From positions 192,001-256,000 of the IMG/VR virus record IMGVR_UViG_3300046522_000316: a DNA stretch of 64,000 nt; one strand, given 5' to 3'. Numbering within the stretch: position 1 is the first letter of the stretch; every line of letters begins with the position of its first letter. Below, in pieces: positions 24,829-38,590 of this stretch. Below the pieces are notes generated by a model, which saw only the letters and a list, made by a program, of their open reading frames with translations, was not told the DNA's origin and searched no databases. Origin of the DNA: a virus. Lineage: Duplodnaviria > Caudoviricetes. The position numbers and the translations under genes are program-made.

Positions 24829-25929
24829 TTCGGCGGTGGCGAGTTGCGGCAAACGCTTGTACAGGAAAGCCAGCAGGTTATCTTCGTGGGATTCGTCACG
24901 TGGAATCGTGAGGCCGTTATTGGTTTCCGTGTTGCGCCGTTCCATCCAGTACGTGACGGTTACGCCAGCATAAAATGCCATCGAAACATACGTGTCTTTC
25001 GGATCTTTATTGTCCGGCCACAGGAAAGCCACAATGCCCTCATGATCGAGCGTTACTTCCGGCGACGGCAAACCGTGTTCTTTCAACGTGGCGAAAAATT
25101 CACCTGCGTTGTTCAGACTGGCAGCAATCGGTTTTTCTTCACCGTCGCCTCCCCAGTTGAATTCGAGTTCGGCGTAAGTGTTTAGGGATTGTTCGGCCAC
25201 GGCGTAAAGCGCATTCGCTTTTTGCCGGGCTTCCTCTTCCTCCTTTTCGATTTCATTCAAAACCGCAACTTGTTCGTCGGTGTACGGCGGAATAACGCAC
25301 TCGGAATCTTCGCCAATTTCTTTGCGGTCGATACGCCCTTGCACCTGTTCGTAATCGGGTTCCGACCACGCCGGGGCGTCAGGATCGTTTGCTTCGGCTT
25401 GTTCCTGCGCGTGCATTTCTTCGTACATCGCTTTATCAGGATGTGGCAGACCGGCGACCACCATTTCCATGCACTGCGGGCAATGGTACATACCCATCGG
25501 CGCACCACACCACATTTCCGGATGTTCGATGCATTCGCCGTTGTTTTTGTACACACGGAAAATAACGGTGCGGATGTTGCCGGTTTCTTCGTTTTTCAGC
25601 ACGCGGAACGCAGTGTGAAATTCTTCCCAGTCGTATTTGAGCGCGTGCGTAAAAGCACCGATCAATTTCATCTGGTCTTCTTGTACGAGATTGCTACCCG
25701 CCAGTCCGAAAACGAAAGTCAGGCACTGCGTGGTTGCTTCGCCTTTTCCTTCGATGAAATAGTTCACGCCGTCTTTGTAGCGGAAGGGCACGATGCTGGC
25801 TGGCCCTGCGATGGAATCGAAAGAAATGCCCAGTTCTTTACCGTCGAACGGCGGCAGTTCCACATCCCACAAAACGTCACGCTGTGTGCCGTTGAAAACT
25901 ACGACGACTTCACCTTTAACCCACGACAT
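24826..25929 (-). CDS. Hypothetical protein with Cys/His (Zn-binding-like) motif and acidic region
   Basis: CIEH...WCGAPMGMYHCPQC. Confidence 0.7.
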   Translation of the reverse strand: MSWVKGEVVVVFNGTQRDVLWDVELPPFDGKELGISFDSIAGPASIVPFRYKDGVNYFIEGKGEATTQCLTFVFGLAGSNLVQEDQMKLIGAFTHALKYDWEEFHTAFRVLKNEETGNIRTVIFRVYKNNGECIEHPEMWCGAPMGMYHCPQCMEMVVAGLPHPDKAMYEEMHAQEQAEANDPDAPAWSEPDYEQVQGRIDRKEIGEDSECVIPPYTDEQVAVLNEIEKEEEEARQKANALYAVAEQSLNTYAELEFNWGGDGEEKPIAASLNNAGEFFATLKEHGLPSPEVTLDHEGIVAFLWPDNKDPKDTYVSMAFYAGVTVTYWMERRNTETNNGLTIPRDESHEDNLLAFLYKRLPQLATAE

Positions 25930-26314
25930 AAAACACCTCAGTAAATGATTGAATTGTTCGTGCGATCAAAGCCTGCACAATCGAATCGTCAGACTGGTAC
26001 GGGCCACACGGATCATGCCAAACGTCAGGCAACGAATAATCGCCGTCGTAGTTTGGTTCGAGCCACAGCAGGCCCTCTTCTTCCCGGTGGCCTTGTGGGC
26101 AGCAGCTGATAACGCATTCGCGCATTTCCACACCGTACAGGCGCATCAACTGGTGTTCGCTAATGTAATGCTGCTGGCCGTCGTTTTTGCTGATCACATA
26201 ATTGGGAACGATCAGGAAATGTTTTTCATTCCGTGAACGGTTTACCCTGCGTAGCATTTCGTCGATTACTTCCTGTTGATGCGGCGGAAGGTCAACGCCT
26301 TTGTATTTGGTCAT
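25916..26314 (-). CDS. Conserved phage hypothetical protein
   Basis: PNYVISKNDGQQHYISEHQLMRLYGV motif; start moved to MTKYKG. Confidence 0.65.
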   Translation of the reverse strand: MTKYKGVDLPPHQQEVIDEMLRRVNRSRNEKHFLIVPNYVISKNDGQQHYISEHQLMRLYGVEMRECVISCCPQGHREEEGLLWLEPNYDGDYSLPDVWHDPCGPYQSDDSIVQALIARTIQSFTEVFYVVG

Positions 26315-26973
26315 GGTTTCGGTGCTTCCAGATCCGTCGCCAAAACTTCTACGCAACCGCCGCCTTGCATTTCCACACGGGCCATAGTTCTTTGCTGTGT
26401 GAGACTCCCACCAATCCACATGTGGCGCACGATGCCGTTACGCCGTGCAGTGCTGACGTAAACCGGCATGCCTTCCTGCGCGATAAATTGCCGCTTCGGT
26501 GGCAAATAATCAGGGCCGTAGGGTTTCGGCAACGTCTTGATCAACGCTTCCAGTTTTTCGAAGGTCGTACTGTTGTGTTCGGAAACATCAGCAGCCTTGA
26601 GTCCCTGCACGTTTACCGGTTTAGCCATAGCCAGAACTTCTTTGATTTCTTCTTCGAATTTCTCGCCGTTGACATGCTGTTCAAATTCGACCGCGCTGTA
26701 GTGCCAGCTACCGGCTTCGAGCAAACGCAAAAACAGCGCACGCATCACCCGGTTCTGTGCTTCCAGTTCGGCGGAGCTACGCAGCGAATCCAGACTCGGA
26801 ATGACGCCGGTTTGTTTGTGGATTTCCAACATCATTTCGATCCACGAAACGATTTCGCTGTTCATGCTGCGATGCTGGCTGTCTGCGATGGATTTGATTT
26901 CTTCGCGCATGCCGTCCAAAAGACGCAACACGAATTTATCTGCGGTACGGCTGCTGTATGTTTTTGCACTCAC
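26311..26973 (-). CDS. amrZ: AmrZ/Arc-family ribbon-helix-helix regulator with extended C-terminus
   Basis: [37 protein letters not shown] closely follows Pseudomonas AmrZ ([37 protein letters not shown], recalled). Confidence 0.85.
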   Translation of the reverse strand: [220 protein letters not shown]

Positions 26974-27752
26974 GATACTTTCCCCACCAAAGCCATTGCC
27001 AGCTGATCGTTCAGCGATGGCTTATTGCGCAAATTGATTTTGAAATATTTGCGAGTCAATTGCTCAAGGCTCGCCAGTTCCCGCGCCACCGGATCACTCG
27101 AAGTTTGTTGCACGATGCATTCCACTTCTTTGATGGTGGTGATTCCGTATTTGAAAATGTACGGCAGGAAAAGTTTGTACGGGCCGAAGGTGCAAATCGC
27201 TTTCTTGCAAACGGTGCCGGGCACACGTTTTTCCGGCCACGTTTCTTGCAGAACTTTGATCACATCGTCAACGGTTTTTACCTGCTTGTATTCGTGCAGA
27301 TAATCCATTTCGATTACGCCTTCGTCTTCATAGTGCAAACTGAACAGACGATCACCGTTCAACTTCAGCGAAAACGCAGCAGTCCACGGGCTGTCGAAGA
27401 AACGCTTTTTGACAGGGCGGCGATTTTTACGCGGGGGCATCTTTGAGGGCTGCACCGTGTGTACGCCCATTTCGTACAAACGAATTTCAATGGCTTCACA
27501 CAGCGCACCAAACGCAGCAATATCTGCTTTGATTTTATCTGCGTAGGTCAGAACCTGTTTAAGGATTGTGGTGTCCATTGTGCGCGACGTGTACGTGTGT
27601 TCTTTGTCGTTGCATACGACACGCACCCGGCCATCGAAAGTCAGCAACGACACGTCGATGTGATGGAACGCCAAACGATCCCCACGCTGGCGGTGAAAGC
27701 CATACTCAAGCAACTGCGCGATCAGACCGGCGCGTTTTTCTTCCTGACTCAT
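26970..27752 (-). CDS. Hypothetical protein, partial paralog of 27749-28597
   Basis: L.L..ED....V.T.D.VIK.LQ segment shared. Confidence 0.65.
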   Translation of the reverse strand: MSQEEKRAGLIAQLLEYGFHRQRGDRLAFHHIDVSLLTFDGRVRVVCNDKEHTYTSRTMDTTILKQVLTYADKIKADIAAFGALCEAIEIRLYEMGVHTVQPSKMPPRKNRRPVKKRFFDSPWTAAFSLKLNGDRLFSLHYEDEGVIEMDYLHEYKQVKTVDDVIKVLQETWPEKRVPGTVCKKAICTFGPYKLFLPYIFKYGITTIKEVECIVQQTSSDPVARELASLEQLTRKYFKINLRNKPSLNDQLAMALVGKVS

Positions 27753-28597
27753 GCAAACTCCCCTGTACCCGCCATTTTCAATTCAGCAGTTTTCTTTTTG
27801 ATGTATTCGAAGAATTCTTCGGTGGTGATTGCACGACGCAGCTTGATTTCCGTGTAATGCATCGGTTCCGGATAATCCTTCACCAGTTCGTTCAGGTCGG
27901 CGTTTTCCGTCGAGAACCGTTGCACGTTTGCCACGCGGTCGATAACGCTGGTCACGCCATGGGTGAACATGAACGGCACGAAATCTTCGTGAGATTTGAA
28001 CGTGATAATGGATTTGCCTTTGAACACAATGCGTTCGTCGTTGCTCGGCCAGAACTGGTGCGACCGCGAACCTTGCAGAATTTTGATTACTTCGTCAGCG
28101 GTTTCTACGTCGTAATCTTCGAACTGGAGGTTCAACGAGGTTTTGTTTGCTGCCCCGGCATACGCCAGATAAAACAGCGGCTCGGCCTTGTATGCATTCG
28201 TGTAGAAATTGCAGACGTGCGTATCAACTTCGTCGCGTTTCCAGAAACCGATTACGCCGAGTTGTTTTGCACGCGCCAACACATCAGCACGCAGACTGTC
28301 GTAGGCCACCACGGACGCAGCACGCAGCGCCATTTCTTGTTCGATATAGGCCACAATTTCTTCAGCTGGCGTTTCTTGTGGCACCATCGAAAAGTTTTTG
28401 TAAGTGACGATATCAACCGTGATTTCATCGGCTGCAATTCGCACGCATGCGTTGTCGTCGTTTTTCACTTCGTAAAGCATGTCGTCATCGTCAGACCATT
28501 CGGCGCGGACGAACTTGTTTTTCTTCAGGCACGCAGTGAGTGCAGGACGACGGAGGGGTTTCAATTTCTTAGCCATTTTTCTTGCACTCACTTGCAC
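27749..28597 (-). CDS. Hypothetical protein
   Basis: ORF track; start uncertain. Confidence 0.65.
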   Translation of the reverse strand: MQVSARKMAKKLKPLRRPALTACLKKNKFVRAEWSDDDDMLYEVKNDDNACVRIAADEITVDIVTYKNFSMVPQETPAEEIVAYIEQEMALRAASVVAYDSLRADVLARAKQLGVIGFWKRDEVDTHVCNFYTNAYKAEPLFYLAYAGAANKTSLNLQFEDYDVETADEVIKILQGSRSHQFWPSNDERIVFKGKSIITFKSHEDFVPFMFTHGVTSVIDRVANVQRFSTENADLNELVKDYPEPMHYTEIKLRRAITTEEFFEYIKKKTAELKMAGTGEFA

Positions 28598-30840: not shown

Positions 30841-31293
30841 TTACACGGCTTTCGCTTTTTTGATTTTAGGCAACGGTGCCTGCGTGTCGCTGATCCGGGT
30901 GTACAAATTCCCCTTGGCCGTGCGCTCACAAATAAATTCGTTGTGGTCGCGTACCCACTGCGCAAACGCAGAATGCCAAGCACTGGAAATTTTCAGGGAC
31001 GATAGGCCTTTGTGCGAATGCAGACGGATCATCAAATCGTACAGGTTAAACCGTATACCGATTTTCAGTTTGCGTGCATAAGGAACCAGCGCATCCCACG
31101 TCAAGCTGGCAGTATCAACCGGCTGGCGTTCCTCTTCGCAACAAACGTTCAGGTGCTGTTGCAAAATGCATTCAACGACCTGTTCCAAAGAACGCCCGGA
31201 ACTTTCCGCACATTCGTGAAGCGAACGTACCACACGCGGATCAAGATCCAACGACAGATTTACCGACGTTAATTCCATTTCTTGCCCACTCAT
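30841..31293 (-). CDS. RHH/CopG-like plus DUF1413-like DNA-binding protein
   Basis: LSLDLDPRVVRSLHECAESSGRSLEQVV; G.RFNLYDL. Confidence 0.6.
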   Translation of the reverse strand: MSGQEMELTSVNLSLDLDPRVVRSLHECAESSGRSLEQVVECILQQHLNVCCEEERQPVDTASLTWDALVPYARKLKIGIRFNLYDLMIRLHSHKGLSSLKISSAWHSAFAQWVRDHNEFICERTAKGNLYTRISDTQAPLPKIKKAKAV

Positions 31294-31386
31294 TTTTATT
31301 GCCCCGTTTTTACAGCTGATCCCACTGTGCAAACAGCCGATCCATTTCACCGTTGTGGTTGCCCATGGGCACAGCGGCGCGTTGTT

Positions 31387-31578
31387 TTACGGTTCCTGCT
31401 GCCAATCGGCTTCGATCAGCTGCACTTTGAAGTTGCGCGCCAGTATTCGGCTTTCCGCCAAGGTGAATTGTCGGGCGCGTAGTCTGCTTTTGCATGTGTA
31501 AACCTTGTCTTCGGTAATCTTGAAAATGTAGGAGCCTTCTGAAAGCCTCGCTACATATTTACAGTTTTTGTTGTCCAT
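31387..31578 (-). CDS. Small hypothetical protein
   Basis: 63 aa; start uncertain because the recurring motif lies in its first codons. Confidence 0.45.
   Translation of the reverse strand: MDNKNCKYVARLSEGSYIFKITEDKVYTCKSRLRARQFTLAESRILARNFKVQLIEADWQQEP
31555..31569 (-). promoter_or_regulatory. AAAAACTGTAAATAT motif
   Basis: Overlaps the K-L-stop end of 31559-31837. Confidence 0.55.
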
Positions 31579-31837
31579 GTTTGCGCACCTTGTGTGCCCA
31601 CAACAACAGCCCCAGCAACGCCACTTGACCGGCCACTGAAATAATCTGAATCATCACGACCAGCCAGCGCTGCGTTGAACCTGCAATCGACAGGTCGTAG
31701 GCCTTGCCGAAAAAGAAATTGCACAGGCCCAAGCACACAACCATGATCGCAATTGCCAGTCGGTTAGACCAGACGGCCCGCGCTTTGCTCTGACGTTCTT
31801 TTTCACGGCGTTGAAGTTCACGATTTAAATCAACCAT
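31559..31837 (-). CDS. Two-TM membrane protein
   Basis: Two hydrophobic segments. Confidence 0.6.
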   Translation of the reverse strand: MVDLNRELQRREKERQSKARAVWSNRLAIAIMVVCLGLCNFFFGKAYDLSIAGSTQRWLVVMIQIISVAGQVALLGLLLWAHKVRKHGQQKL

Positions 31838-32495
31838 TCTTCAGAGCCTCGATGCATGCGATACGTGCGTCAAGCGTGCGCTGCCAGATATGTTCCCCGG
31901 CCTGCGAATGCATAACGGAACTTTTCAGAAAATCAATTTGCATCGGAATGGCATCAATCGGAATGACGCCCATTTCTTCGCACAGGTCGAACATCACATA
32001 TTGGATGCAGTGAGGTTCCATGCTTTCCATCAGGTCAGCATCGCGCAGACAACATTCCAAAATGCTGTTCGGTTCAATTGGAAATGCCATGTCGCGGAAT
32101 TCCGTGCAGCGAATTGCACGTTCGATCAAACCAATTCCAGCCGGGCCGAAATAGTCATGAACGCATTCAGCGGCGCGCAGACCAGAAACAGCGATTTCGA
32201 TATTGTTGATATCAGGGCCTTTGCCGGTGTGACCGAAATCGTGAAACAGTGCAGCGCAAATGCCGCGTGCGTAGTCCTGCTTCAAACGCCAGCCACTGGC
32301 AGTCATCAGTTCAACGAAACGCAGCGCCACGCGGATACAGTGATCAACGTTGTGGTAAGCGTTGCCGGTATCGAACTGCGCTTTTTGCACGTACCGAAAA
32401 ATCGTAGCCAAACCGTATTCTTCGGTAATTGCTTCGATCATTGCCAGCCGGTAAGTGGCTGCAACGTCCAACTGCATTTTATCCAAAAGACTCAT
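31830..32495 (-). CDS. HD-domain metal-dependent phosphohydrolase
   Basis: YHNVDH...ALFHDFGHTG...DADL. Confidence 0.85.
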   Translation of the reverse strand: MSLLDKMQLDVAATYRLAMIEAITEEYGLATIFRYVQKAQFDTGNAYHNVDHCIRVALRFVELMTASGWRLKQDYARGICAALFHDFGHTGKGPDINNIEIAVSGLRAAECVHDYFGPAGIGLIERAIRCTEFRDMAFPIEPNSILECCLRDADLMESMEPHCIQYVMFDLCEEMGVIPIDAIPMQIDFLKSSVMHSQAGEHIWQRTLDARIACIEALKNG

Positions 32496-37097: not shown

Positions 37098-37751
37098 TTA
37101 GTCGCAACCACCGGGGCTGCTGTCGTTGTTGCTCGACGGCGAATCGTAGCTCTCAGAACGGCTAGGAGACGAATAGGATTCGCTGCGGCTCGGTGCTGGC
37201 TCAGGCGCCGAATAAACCGGGCTGCATTGCTGTGCAGTGTGGCTAGGCGAACCGGGATAGCCTTCGGTTGCCTGTACCTGCGGAACTTCCACCACGTGCG
37301 CCCGGAAATCCGAATCGACTACAGCAAAAGCAGTAGCCGTAAGCAAAGCGCTGTTGTCTGGTTGGGGACTTTCCAGCGGATCGCGGTCATTACGGCGACG
37401 GCGATTCGACTCGCTCGCCATGTCAGAAGAAACAACACCGGGAACGTCGGTGCGGGGCCGGGACTTTGGGCCTTCTGTTTGCCCGTGCGTGCCTTTCACT
37501 TGGTACGGCAAATTTTCAGCGTGTGCAGCGCCAGACAAAACAGCAATGCGATTGCGGCATTCGTCCAGCTTCTGATCACGATCCAGAAGTTTGCGCACGT
37601 AGTCACGATTTGCGGCCTGCAATTGATGCACTTCGTTTTCCAACGTCACGCGATCTTTTTGCATTTCTTTTTGACGTGCAACGAACGCCTGCCATGCCTT
37701 CGTGTTGAACAGTACGTCGTACCAGCAAAACGATTTTACGAATACGCTCAT
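37098..37751 (-). CDS. Coiled-coil protein with Ser-rich low-complexity tail
   Basis: SRSESYSSPSRSESYDSPSS repeat. Confidence 0.65.
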   Translation of the reverse strand: MSVFVKSFCWYDVLFNTKAWQAFVARQKEMQKDRVTLENEVHQLQAANRDYVRKLLDRDQKLDECRNRIAVLSGAAHAENLPYQVKGTHGQTEGPKSRPRTDVPGVVSSDMASESNRRRRNDRDPLESPQPDNSALLTATAFAVVDSDFRAHVVEVPQVQATEGYPGSPSHTAQQCSPVYSAPEPAPSRSESYSSPSRSESYDSPSSNNDSSPGGCD

Positions 37752-38590
37752 TGTGCATTCCATCCGAGGTTAGCGAACAGGTCTTCACCGATTTCATAAT
37801 CAGTGTCCAAACTGTTCAGGTGTTCAGCGAAAAGCTTCGACCAGTTTTCCAGTTCAACGCCCGGATAAACCGAGGCGAAATCACGCAGTGCAACAGGCGG
37901 AATAAAATCGACGCCTTTTTCACGCGATCCAACGGTAACGCCTTTGCGCAGACGCAGACGCAGTGCGACCGCCACATGCAAACGACCAACGTTATCAGTT
38001 GCATCGAAAATCAAACCTTCGAAGTGCAGCGAAGCCAGATGCGCCAGACTGTGAACAGTGGCGATCAAACGTTCTGCTGGCGTGCCTTCGTTTTCCCACG
38101 CGACGAATTTTTCGCCGTTGACAAACCACGTCATTTCTTCGAACGCTTCACGCATCACGTTGTAAAGCAGCGTGGCGTATGCGTCGATAACGCTGGTCGG
38201 AATACCGCCCGCATTAATCACGGTTTTTACGTCGAGGAAATCAGTGTGTCCACCGGGGCACAGCGAACCCCGGCCCTGCAAATCCGATTCACCGTTACCT
38301 TCCCGCGCACGCATGTACGGATTCACTACCGGCTGAAATGGTGGCGTGCCGTGTTCTTCGACCGTGAAGTAATTCAGCCACTGCGCATAATCGCGGTTGC
38401 CTTTGTACGACTCGCCCCAGTGCAGGGATTCGTCGAGGTCTTCACGCTGGCCGATAATCAGACCGCGTTTGGTCAGGTTCAGGAATTGTTGAAAATCAAC
38501 TTTCACAAAACCTTTGCCACCCAAACCGAGTTGCGGAATGTCTTGCAAAACTTTGCGGCGAATTGCCACGATAGATTCTGGATATTTCAA
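37748..38590 (-). CDS. Nudix-fold phosphoesterase-like protein
   Basis: Y.QWLNY...SLCPGGHTD...NVMREAFEEM; TTG start. Confidence 0.7.
   Translation of the reverse strand: MKYPESIVAIRRKVLQDIPQLGLGGKGFVKVDFQQFLNLTKRGLIIGQREDLDESLHWGESYKGNRDYAQWLNYFTVEEHGTPPFQPVVNPYMRAREGNGESDLQGRGSLCPGGHTDFLDVKTVINAGGIPTSVIDAYATLLYNVMREAFEEMTWFVNGEKFVAWENEGTPAERLIATVHSLAHLASLHFEGLIFDATDNVGRLHVAVALRLRLRKGVTVGSREKGVDFIPPVALRDFASVYPGVELENWSKLFAEHLNSLDTDYEIGEDLFANLGWNAQ

What the first reader, a model, noticed from the sequence alone, without database searches (positions are those of the whole stretch)
26311..26973. Phage-encoded AmrZ mimic fused to extra domains
Seen: a near-identical N-terminal RHH to Pseudomonas AmrZ, including the DNA-contacting strand ([11 protein letters not shown]), with L replacing the usual P in RLP, followed by about 170 unrelated residues ending in an SH3/KOW-like segment. 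Established: AmrZ controls alginate, motility and c-di-GMP genes, and AmrZ and its phage homologs have been reported to repress P. aeruginosa CRISPR-Cas expression. Inference: a transcription-level anti-CRISPR or surface-receptor remodelling factor, with a novel C-terminal addition.
Basis: partly seen in the sequence, partly recalled or inferred. Interest (0 to 1): 0.65.

Follow-up and report, generated by a model that had tools for sequence, protein, structure and literature searches.

The report
Jumbo-phage AmrZ-like regulator, three modules
A giant soil or rhizosphere Pseudomonas-type phage encodes a 220-residue protein whose front end copies the DNA-reading head of the host biofilm and motility regulator AmrZ, followed by a small acidic helical module and a Tudor/KOW-like barrel; phage AmrZ look-alikes are already published and tested, so this is a new variant of a known kind, not a new principle.

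Summary
Window 26311-26973 (-) is a real, conserved gene, translationally coupled to both neighbours. Residues 5-49 are 67% identical to P. aeruginosa AmrZ (PDB 3QOQ). That includes the exact [11 protein letters not shown] arm and strand, and every base-reading and dimer-dimer residue; RLL replaces RLP. About 170 residues follow that show no similarity to the AmrZ tail.

The window belongs to a Lu11/HRDY3-like jumbo phage. About 25 full-length relatives sit on ~300-kb phage contigs. The tail has two parts:
- A ~48-residue acidic helical module (LL..G.W[FY].SA.E.D...DGE), absent from Pfam and PHROGs and shared only with a few small phage-like proteins.
- A Tudor/KOW-type barrel, probably homologous (hhalign 74%) to the barrel tail of the shorter jumbo-phage AmrZ homologues, including PaBG's, which was shown to repress CRISPR-Cas.

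So the C-terminal addition is only partly novel. The most likely function is an AmrZ-operator-binding regulator that rewires host transcription while lacking AmrZ's own tetramerisation and SadB/Lon-degron tail. The specific anti-CRISPR or receptor-remodelling role is untested, and no AmrZ-type operators are enriched in the window. This scan has found phage AmrZ look-alikes on other DNA before. Verdict: new variant of a known kind, moderate interest.

The parts
26311..26973 (-). Whole CDS, 220 aa plus stop, GTG start
   Evidence: 17 homologues at 45-86% identity and the same length.
26818..26973 (-). [quoted passage not shown]
   Evidence: Pfam Arc at 50.4 bits. AmrZ 3QOQ at E 5e-13. Translation checked. 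Y6, S8, R9, K13, V15, R17, R23, N38, H34, R35 and E46 correspond to AmrZ Y11, S13, R14, K18, V20, R22, R28, N43, H39, R40 and E51.
26620..26808 (-). Residues 56-118: acidic helical module. Predicted as helix 61-86, conserved loop [11 protein letters not shown], then helix 103-115.
   Evidence: AF2 pLDDT 68-83. The profile search finds the core in ~25 small proteins of 59-158 aa. No Pfam or PHROG family matches. Mean net charge is -3.9. Translation checked.
26500..26619 (-). Residues 119-158: variable, low-confidence linker
   Evidence: pLDDT is below 50-63. Length varies from 5 to 45 residues across the family.
26314..26499 (-). Residues 159-220: Tudor/KOW-type SH3-like beta-barrel
   Evidence: pLDDT ~96. 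VIA-align Z 8.4, rmsd 2.3 A over 56 residues to the ERCC6-L2 Tudor domain, in a flat list of Tudor/KOW/chromo barrels. hhalign to the barrel tails of the shorter phage AmrZ homologues gives prob 73.8%, P 2.9e-5. Translation checked.
26970..26973 (-). GTGA overlap: stop of the upstream ORF (26970-27752) overlaps the start of this gene
   Evidence: Sequence read directly.
26311..26314 (-). ATGA overlap: stop of this gene overlaps the ATG of the downstream 132-aa ORF (25916-26314)
   Evidence: Sequence read directly.

Best explanation
This is a transcription factor of a Lu11/HRDY3-like jumbo phage of soil or rhizosphere Pseudomonas.

Shown:
- It has an Arc-family ribbon-helix-helix head with the AmrZ-specific N-terminal arm.
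- It keeps AmrZ's base-reading Lys/Val/Arg triplet, its backbone contacts and its dimer-dimer contacts. These are kept in 25 of 26 family members although the rest of the protein has diverged to about 25-45% identity.

Inferred:
- RHH dimers read GGC half-sites as AmrZ does. They would therefore occupy AmrZ-type operators in the infected cell, such as those of amrZ, fleQ, psl, algD and c-di-GMP genes, and the cas promoter where present. That would reset surface, motility, biofilm and possibly defence expression to the phage's benefit.
- AmrZ's own tail, which tetramerises the protein and carries the SadB/Lon degradation signal, is absent. It is replaced by an acidic helical module and a Tudor/KOW-like barrel.
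- These parts presumably supply self-association or a contact with RNA polymerase or another partner, and free the protein from the host's proteolytic control of AmrZ.
For: - Head identity.
- Contact residues defined in the AmrZ-DNA structure (PMC3325190) are invariant in the family.
- The AmrZ-type head occurs in at least 576 places in bacterial genomes. The best 80 are almost all Pseudomonas or Azotobacter. Among cultured phages it occurs only in Pseudomonas phages, so it tracks the host genus.
- Precedents: PaBG, phi3 and JBD68 AmrZ homologues work in P. aeruginosa and lower Csy levels (10.1101/673095). Early RHH protein Gp53 of PhiPA1019 binds the ftsZ, fleQ, pslA and amrZ promoters (PMC13650114).
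- The barrel tail is probably shared with PaBG- and Noxifer-type homologues.
- There is no excess of GGC-N5-GCC operators in the 64-kb phage window: 19 against 18.65 expected, and 2 against 2.03 with an A/T-rich linker. This fits targets lying elsewhere.
- The SadB-binding residues Q91, A94 and L95 lie in the AmrZ tail (PMC12075610), which has no counterpart here.
Against: - There is no experiment on this protein or its family.
- The head is only 58-67% identical to AmrZ. The Pro-to-Leu change just after the reading strand could alter geometry.
- The host is unknown, and whether it has an AmrZ-controlled CRISPR system is also unknown.
- Only 64 kb of a roughly 300-kb genome could be scanned for operators, and the AmrZ consensus is degenerate (PMC3946381). 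Phage-internal targets are therefore not excluded.
- The functions of the two tail modules are inferred from fold and charge alone.
Confidence: 0.5

Rival explanations
1. It is a phage-internal regulator. The protein binds operators in the phage's own genome, for example to time early and middle genes or to autoregulate its long leftward operon. The likeness to AmrZ would then reflect shared ancestry only.
For: - Arc, Mnt and many phage RHH proteins regulate phage promoters (established knowledge; PHROG hits are annotated as Arc-like regulators).
- The three-module heads form their own clan (support 0.92) and are more diverged from AmrZ than the short phage homologues are. That suggests long residence in the phage.
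- The gene has conserved synteny in ~300-kb phages.
Against: - There is no excess of AmrZ-type operators in the window.
- The one site in the putative upstream gap lies inside small ORFs.
- The reading residues and the AmrZ-specific arm have stayed identical to those of the host genus, which is unexpected if the host sites did not matter.
Confidence: 0.25
2. It is a dominant-negative antagonist of host AmrZ. The phage head forms mixed RHH dimers with AmrZ subunits, or competes for its sites. Because it lacks the AmrZ tetramerisation tail, it would break AmrZ activation and repression rather than mimic them.
For: - The head is 67% identical to AmrZ, with the hydrophobic core kept.
- The AmrZ C-terminal domain is required for tetramerisation and for both activities (Xu et al. 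2016, as cited in PMC13650114) and is absent here.
- Gp53 and AmrZ are reported not to be functionally equivalent.
Against: - 5 of 6 mobile homologues complemented a delta-amrZ strain instead of antagonising AmrZ.
- The dimer-dimer contacts seen on DNA (H39, R40, E51) are kept, so the protein can probably form its own dimer-of-dimers.
- No heterodimer test could be run.
Confidence: 0.12
3. It is a partition or centromere-binding protein (ParG/omega-like), or a ribbon-helix-helix antitoxin.
For: Some PHROG families hit by the head are labelled 'partition protein'. The FitA-like antitoxin RHH profile also matches related heads weakly.
Against: - No ParA-type ATPase or toxin family is found in the ten neighbouring ORFs.
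- The PHROG matches cover only the RHH.
- The gene sits in a string of overlapping phage genes of unknown function.
Confidence: 0.03

Closest known systems
AmrZ (AlgZ) of Pseudomonas aeruginosa, 108 aa, PDB 3QOQ
   Same: It shares the Arc-type RHH with the same N-terminal arm (YSSR), the same base-reading K/V/R triplet, R28 and N43 equivalents, and the dimer-dimer residues. Identity is 67% over 45 residues.
   Different: - It lacks AmrZ residues 1-5 and has Leu for Pro24.
- The AmrZ C-terminal domain (tetramerisation, SadB/Lon degron) is absent. It is replaced by ~170 unrelated residues.
- It is phage-borne, not chromosomal.
Mobile AmrZ homologues of Pseudomonas phages and plasmids: PaBG gp302, phi3, JBD68 (Borges et al., bioRxiv 10.1101/673095); also Noxifer gp106
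   Same: These are phage-encoded AmrZ-type heads. PaBG- and Noxifer-type proteins of 120-175 aa end in a small barrel of the pattern W.P.vG.lV...L.P. That barrel aligns with this protein's barrel at hhalign prob 74%. PaBG is a distant relative of Lu11-type phages (PMC7412058).
   Different: Their heads are closer to AmrZ (mean 79% against 58%) and intermingle with bacterial AmrZ in a head-only tree. They have no acidic helical module; here about 105 residues separate head and barrel. This family is untested.
Gp53 of P. aeruginosa phage PhiPA1019 (126 aa; PMC13650114)
   Same: It is an early RHH protein of a lytic phage, resembles AmrZ, and binds the host promoters ftsZ, fleQ, pslA and amrZ.
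   Different: It comes from a 94-kb phage and is a short protein.
XDJ14992.1 of Pseudomonas phage HRDY3 (205 aa), annotated 'Arc-like DNA binding domain protein'
   Same: It has the same three-module build and the same gene neighbourhood. It is the only cultured-phage relative found.
   Different: It is 34% identical and keeps RLP. No function has been studied.
P22 Arc and Mnt repressors
   Same: They share the RHH fold family. Mnt likewise uses a C-terminal add-on to tetramerise (PMC3325190).
   Different: They have different reading residues and tails, and they regulate phage promoters.

Membership tests
[quoted passage not shown] | Profile match above the curated cut-off | tested here: met
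   50.4 bits against a cut-off of 20.4, residues 8-46.
AmrZ orthologue | Base-reading residues K18, V20, R22 and arm residues Y11, S13, R14 | tested here: met
   K13, V15, R17, Y6, S8 and R9 are present. They are kept in 25 of 26 family members.
AmrZ orthologue | C-terminal tetramerisation domain (...SPELSLHERELLQRFRQL..QQNAL...) with the SadB-binding residues | tested here: not met
   No such motif is present. hhalign of the middle region against an alignment of AmrZ tails gives P 0.39. Degron residues are from PMC12075610.
AmrZ orthologue | Chromosomal gene of Pseudomonadaceae | tested here: not met
   The window is a jumbo-phage fragment. No full-length relative appears among bacterial genome hits.
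Barrel-tailed mobile AmrZ homologues (PaBG/Noxifer type) | AmrZ-type head followed by a small C-terminal beta-barrel | tested here: met
   The head is met as above. The barrel is modelled at pLDDT ~96.
Barrel-tailed mobile AmrZ homologues (PaBG/Noxifer type) | Barrel homologous to theirs and joined to the head by a short linker only | tested here: inconclusive
   hhalign gives prob 73.8%, P 2.9e-5 over 51 columns, but a plain HMM search gives nothing significant. Here a ~105-residue module plus linker is inserted.
Tudor/KOW/chromo (SH3-like barrel) fold | Five-stranded small barrel superposable on solved members | tested here: met
   Z 8.4, 8.3, 8.1 and 8.0 to the ERCC6-L2 Tudor, SMN Tudor, Tbtudor and DSIF KOW domains, at rmsd 1.7-2.3 A over 50-56 residues. 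The Foldseek local hits are the same kinds.
CarD/TRCF RNA-polymerase-interacting domain (PF02559) | Sequence or fold match to the RID barrel | tested here: inconclusive
   The ESM Atlas shape search lists Mfd/CarD_TRCF_RID proteins first, but at TM 0.35-0.44. There is no Pfam hit at E up to 1, and none appears in the top 50 of the PDB-wide list.
Transcription-level anti-CRISPR (AmrZ-type repression of cas genes) | Lowers Cas expression or CRISPR immunity in the host | not testable with these tools
   This is known only for the PaBG, phi3 and JBD68 homologues in P. aeruginosa PA14. The host of this phage is unknown.
ParG/omega-type partition protein or RHH antitoxin | Adjacent ParA-type ATPase or toxin gene | tested here: not met
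   No such family is found in the neighbouring ORFs.

The most novel reading that the evidence does not exclude
The ~48-residue acidic module (LL..G.W[FY].SA.E.D...DGE..L..E) may be a portable phage docking unit for a host protein such as RNA polymerase, or the SadB/Lon system that controls AmrZ. The module also occurs alone in small phage-like proteins. Tethered to an AmrZ head and a Tudor/KOW-like barrel, it would make a phage-built factor that brings or traps that host machinery at AmrZ operators. The factor would then be more than a simple repressor copy.
Probability: 0.12. Interest if true: 0.7.

Novelty: new variant of a known kind. Interest (0 to 1): 0.38.

Why it matters
Phage copies of host master regulators are a known route to rewiring infected cells, and AmrZ copies are the best-documented case in Pseudomonas. 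This family adds three points:
- The AmrZ reading head has been kept for a long time in ~300-kb soil phages while the host's regulatory tail was swapped for phage-specific parts.
- The barrel tail appears to be a common feature of jumbo-phage AmrZ homologues. In the papers read here, no mention of it was found.
- One more small module, with no family assignment, can be inserted between head and barrel.

If the tail modules contact RNA polymerase or shield the protein from SadB/Lon, that would explain why phages replace the tail rather than copy the whole of AmrZ. A cultured relative, HRDY3, makes this testable.

Tried and rejected
No oligomer, AmrZ-heterodimer or RNA-polymerase docking test was run.
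- The AF2 monomer of the full protein gave a poor model (pLDDT 59), with the RHH modelled as helices, as expected for an obligate dimer.
- Foldseek against the PDB and BFVD gave no match at E <= 0.001, only generic small barrels. PaBG- and Noxifer-type proteins did not appear in the BFVD list.
- The ESM Atlas feature search on residues 56-220 gave no usable hit.
- Pfam and PHROGs found no family for the middle module, alone or in the small proteins.
- A profile search for longer proteins carrying the module found no new fusion partners. Contexts of stand-alone copies were short contigs of small unnamed ORFs and told nothing about function.
- P0137, a 674-aa eukaryote-like repeat protein, was judged a false positive.
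- A plain HMM of the barrel against the tails of the shorter homologues gave nothing significant. Only the profile-profile comparison gave a signal.
- A possible AmrZ-tail origin for the first helix of the module was rejected (hhalign P 0.39). The idea came from tblastn extensions to residue 84.
- The operator search for GGC-N5-GCC showed no enrichment. The site at 31449 lies in coding sequence.
- The sigma-70 promoter and terminator scans were at chance level.
- No whole genome is held for this window.
- No RNA holder was listed among the sequencing runs, and read laying was not used.
- Midpoint rooting of the 50-residue head tree was uninformative. Only the unrooted split is reported.

Full report
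**The gene.** Window 26311-26973 on the minus strand is a 220-codon ORF with a GTG start.
- Its start overlaps the stop of the upstream ORF (GTGA).
- Its stop overlaps the ATG of the next ORF (ATGA). It therefore sits in a string of translationally coupled leftward genes.
- Seventeen proteins of 202-229 aa at 45-86% identity exist in metagenome assemblies, several on contigs of 290-316 kb.
- An exhaustive profile search added eight more distant full-length relatives.
- The gene is real and under selection.

**The replicon.** The window encodes virion structural proteins. It also encodes a glutathionylspermidine synthase that is 65% identical to those of the jumbo Pseudomonas phages HRDY3 (313 kb) and Lu11 (280 kb).
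- HRDY3 has a syntenic 205-aa homologue at 34% identity, annotated 'Arc-like DNA binding domain protein'.
- Lu11 gave no hit at the threshold used.
- IMG/VR contigs of 300-308 kb carry relatives in the same gene order.
- The stretch is held by rhizosphere and soil metagenomes from separate studies.
- No whole genome is held for the window.

**The head.**
- Pfam Arc matches residues 8-46 at 50.4 bits against a cut-off of 20.4.
- The only solved relative is AmrZ (3QOQ), E 5e-13, with 30 of 45 residues identical.
- The AmrZ-DNA structure paper names K18, V20 and R22 as the base readers of 5'-GGC half-sites. It names Y11, S13, R14 and E25 in the N-terminal arm, R28 and N43 as backbone or positioning contacts, and H38, H39, R40 and E51 at the dimer-dimer interface (PMC3325190).
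- With an offset of five, this protein has K13, V15, R17, Y6, S8, R9, D20, R23, N38, Q33, H34, R35 and E46. Except for the variable H38 position (and D/E at E25), these are kept in 25 of 26 members of the wider family.
- The Pro-to-Leu change (RLL) marks the close clade. Distant members keep RLP, and one keeps AmrZ's MKPLKQ start.
- In 185,579 species genomes the same head motifs occur in at least 576 places. The best 80 are almost all Pseudomonas, Azotobacter or close kin, and none is full-length.
- Among cultured phages, only Pseudomonas phages carry the head.
- In a tree of the 50-residue head, the three-module family forms one clan (support 0.92) with 58% mean identity to bacterial AmrZ. 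The heads of the shorter phage homologues average 79% and intermingle with AmrZ. With so short an alignment, this is indicative only.

**The tail.** Nothing after residue 55 resembles the AmrZ C-terminal domain. Two modules can be told apart.

*The acidic helical module (residues ~61-115).*
- It is predicted as helix, conserved loop, helix at pLDDT 68-83.
- Its net charge is about -4.
- The core motif is LL..G.W[FYH].SA.E.D....[VI]DGE..[LF]..E[IV]...L.
- A profile of the whole non-RHH part, run against 1.84 billion representatives, found only 35 proteins. About 25 are small proteins of 59-158 aa that share just this core, alone or behind a coiled-coil or cysteine-rich segment.
- The core is in neither Pfam nor PHROGs.
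- The few contexts recovered are short contigs of small overlapping unnamed ORFs, one beside a sliding-clamp gene and an RNase T gene.
- No further fusion partner was found, and there is no second copy in the window.

*The barrel (residues 161-220).*
- It is modelled at pLDDT ~96.
- It superposes on Tudor, KOW and chromo barrels at Z 8.4-6.5, in a flat list that singles out no function.
- An ESM Atlas shape search put Mfd/CarD_TRCF_RID proteins first, but at TM 0.35-0.44. I keep this only as a lead for an RNA-polymerase contact.

**Relation to known phage AmrZ homologues.** Sorting the Arc-domain hits by their tails gave two classes.
- *Bacterial AmrZ.* These carry the ...SPELSLHERELLQRFRQL..QQNAL tail.
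- *Short phage homologues.* About 66 proteins of 120-175 aa have the head followed by a segment of pattern W.P.vG.lV...G.I..f....a.....L.P[FVI]. Many lie on 246-277-kb contigs. This class includes Noxifer gp106 and PaBG gp302.
- A profile-profile comparison of this protein's barrel with those tails gives 73.8% probability, P 2.9e-5 over 51 columns. A plain HMM search does not reach significance.
- PaBG's protein is one of three phage homologues shown to lower Csy complex levels in P. aeruginosa. Five of six mobile homologues complemented delta-amrZ (10.1101/673095).
- PaBG and Lu11 belong to one distant phage group (PMC7412058).
- The barrel is therefore probably not a novelty of this protein. 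The inserted module is.

**Mechanism.** What is shown is an AmrZ-type reading head on a phage-specific tail. Three steps are inferred.
- *Site recognition.* The protein recognises GGC half-sites and AmrZ operators.
- *Location of targets.* The main targets are probably in the host.
  - amrZ1-type sites (GGC-N5-GCC) are at chance level in the window: 19 against 18.65 expected, and 2 against 2.03 with an A/T-rich linker.
  - The head has stayed matched to that of the host genus.
  - Gp53 of PhiPA1019, an early AmrZ-like RHH protein, binds the ftsZ, fleQ, pslA and amrZ promoters (PMC13650114).
- *The tail swap.* The swap removes the residues through which SadB hands AmrZ to Lon (Q91, A94, L95; PMC12075610). 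The phage protein should therefore escape that control. The module and barrel would supply oligomerisation or a partner contact in place of the AmrZ tetramerisation domain.

**Rivals.** Three alternatives remain: a purely phage-internal regulator, a dominant-negative AmrZ antagonist, and a partition protein or antitoxin.
- The first cannot be excluded, since only a fifth of the genome was available.
- The third is unlikely, as no ParA-type or toxin gene is nearby.

**Novelty.** Phage AmrZ homologues are published and tested. Earlier reports of this scan describe barrel-tailed look-alikes in several other jumbo-phage genomes, and one longer relative. My analysis agrees with them and was made before I read them. 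The additions here are:
- the three-module family;
- the unassigned acidic module, and its occurrence alone in small proteins;
- the profile link between the barrels;
- the missing degron;
- the lack of operators in the window.

I rate it a new variant of a known kind, of moderate interest.

Noticed in passing
window 30841-31350 (-): A second possible ribbon-helix-helix protein lies in the same leftward gene string. It is a 169-aa ORF with a sub-threshold FitA-like RHH match (21.2 bits against a cut-off of 27, residues 35-66) and about 100 further residues of unknown kind.
   Followed up: partly
window 26970-27752 (-) and 27749-28597 (-): The two ORFs directly upstream (260 and 282 aa, no family) are paralogues over their C-terminal ~85 residues (32% identity, E 4e-10). 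A homologue precedes the AmrZ-like gene in the distant ~300-kb relatives too.
   Followed up: partly
P0128-P0153 (metagenome proteins); module in window 26620-26808 (-): A ~48-residue acidic motif, LL..G.W[FY].SA.E.D...DGE..L..E, defines a small unnamed family of 59-158-aa proteins. They lie on phage-like contigs and are absent from Pfam and PHROGs.
   Followed up: partly
window 38557-38567: This is one of only two AmrZ-operator-like palindromes with an A/T-rich linker (GGCAATTCGCC). It lies at the start of ORF 37748-38590 (-), where another first-stage note places a conserved leader. The count is at chance level, so it may mean nothing.
   Followed up: no
L089 (JAVESM010000002.1, 276,082 bp, filed as a Pseudomonas sp. 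MAG contig): It gave the best 'bacterial' hit to the head (54% over residues 5-85). The contig has the size of a Noxifer-type jumbo-phage genome, so it is probably a phage contig binned into a bacterial MAG.
   Followed up: no
window 25916-26314 (-): The coupled downstream 132-aa ORF (phrog_7644, unknown function) is present in L002 but absent between the same two genes in HRDY3, L003 and L004. It is therefore a lineage-specific insert.
   Followed up: partly
window 31830-32495 (-): A 221-aa HD-domain protein has a weak class I phosphodiesterase-like match (HD 22.9 bits; PDEase_I 18 bits, below its cut-off).
   Followed up: no
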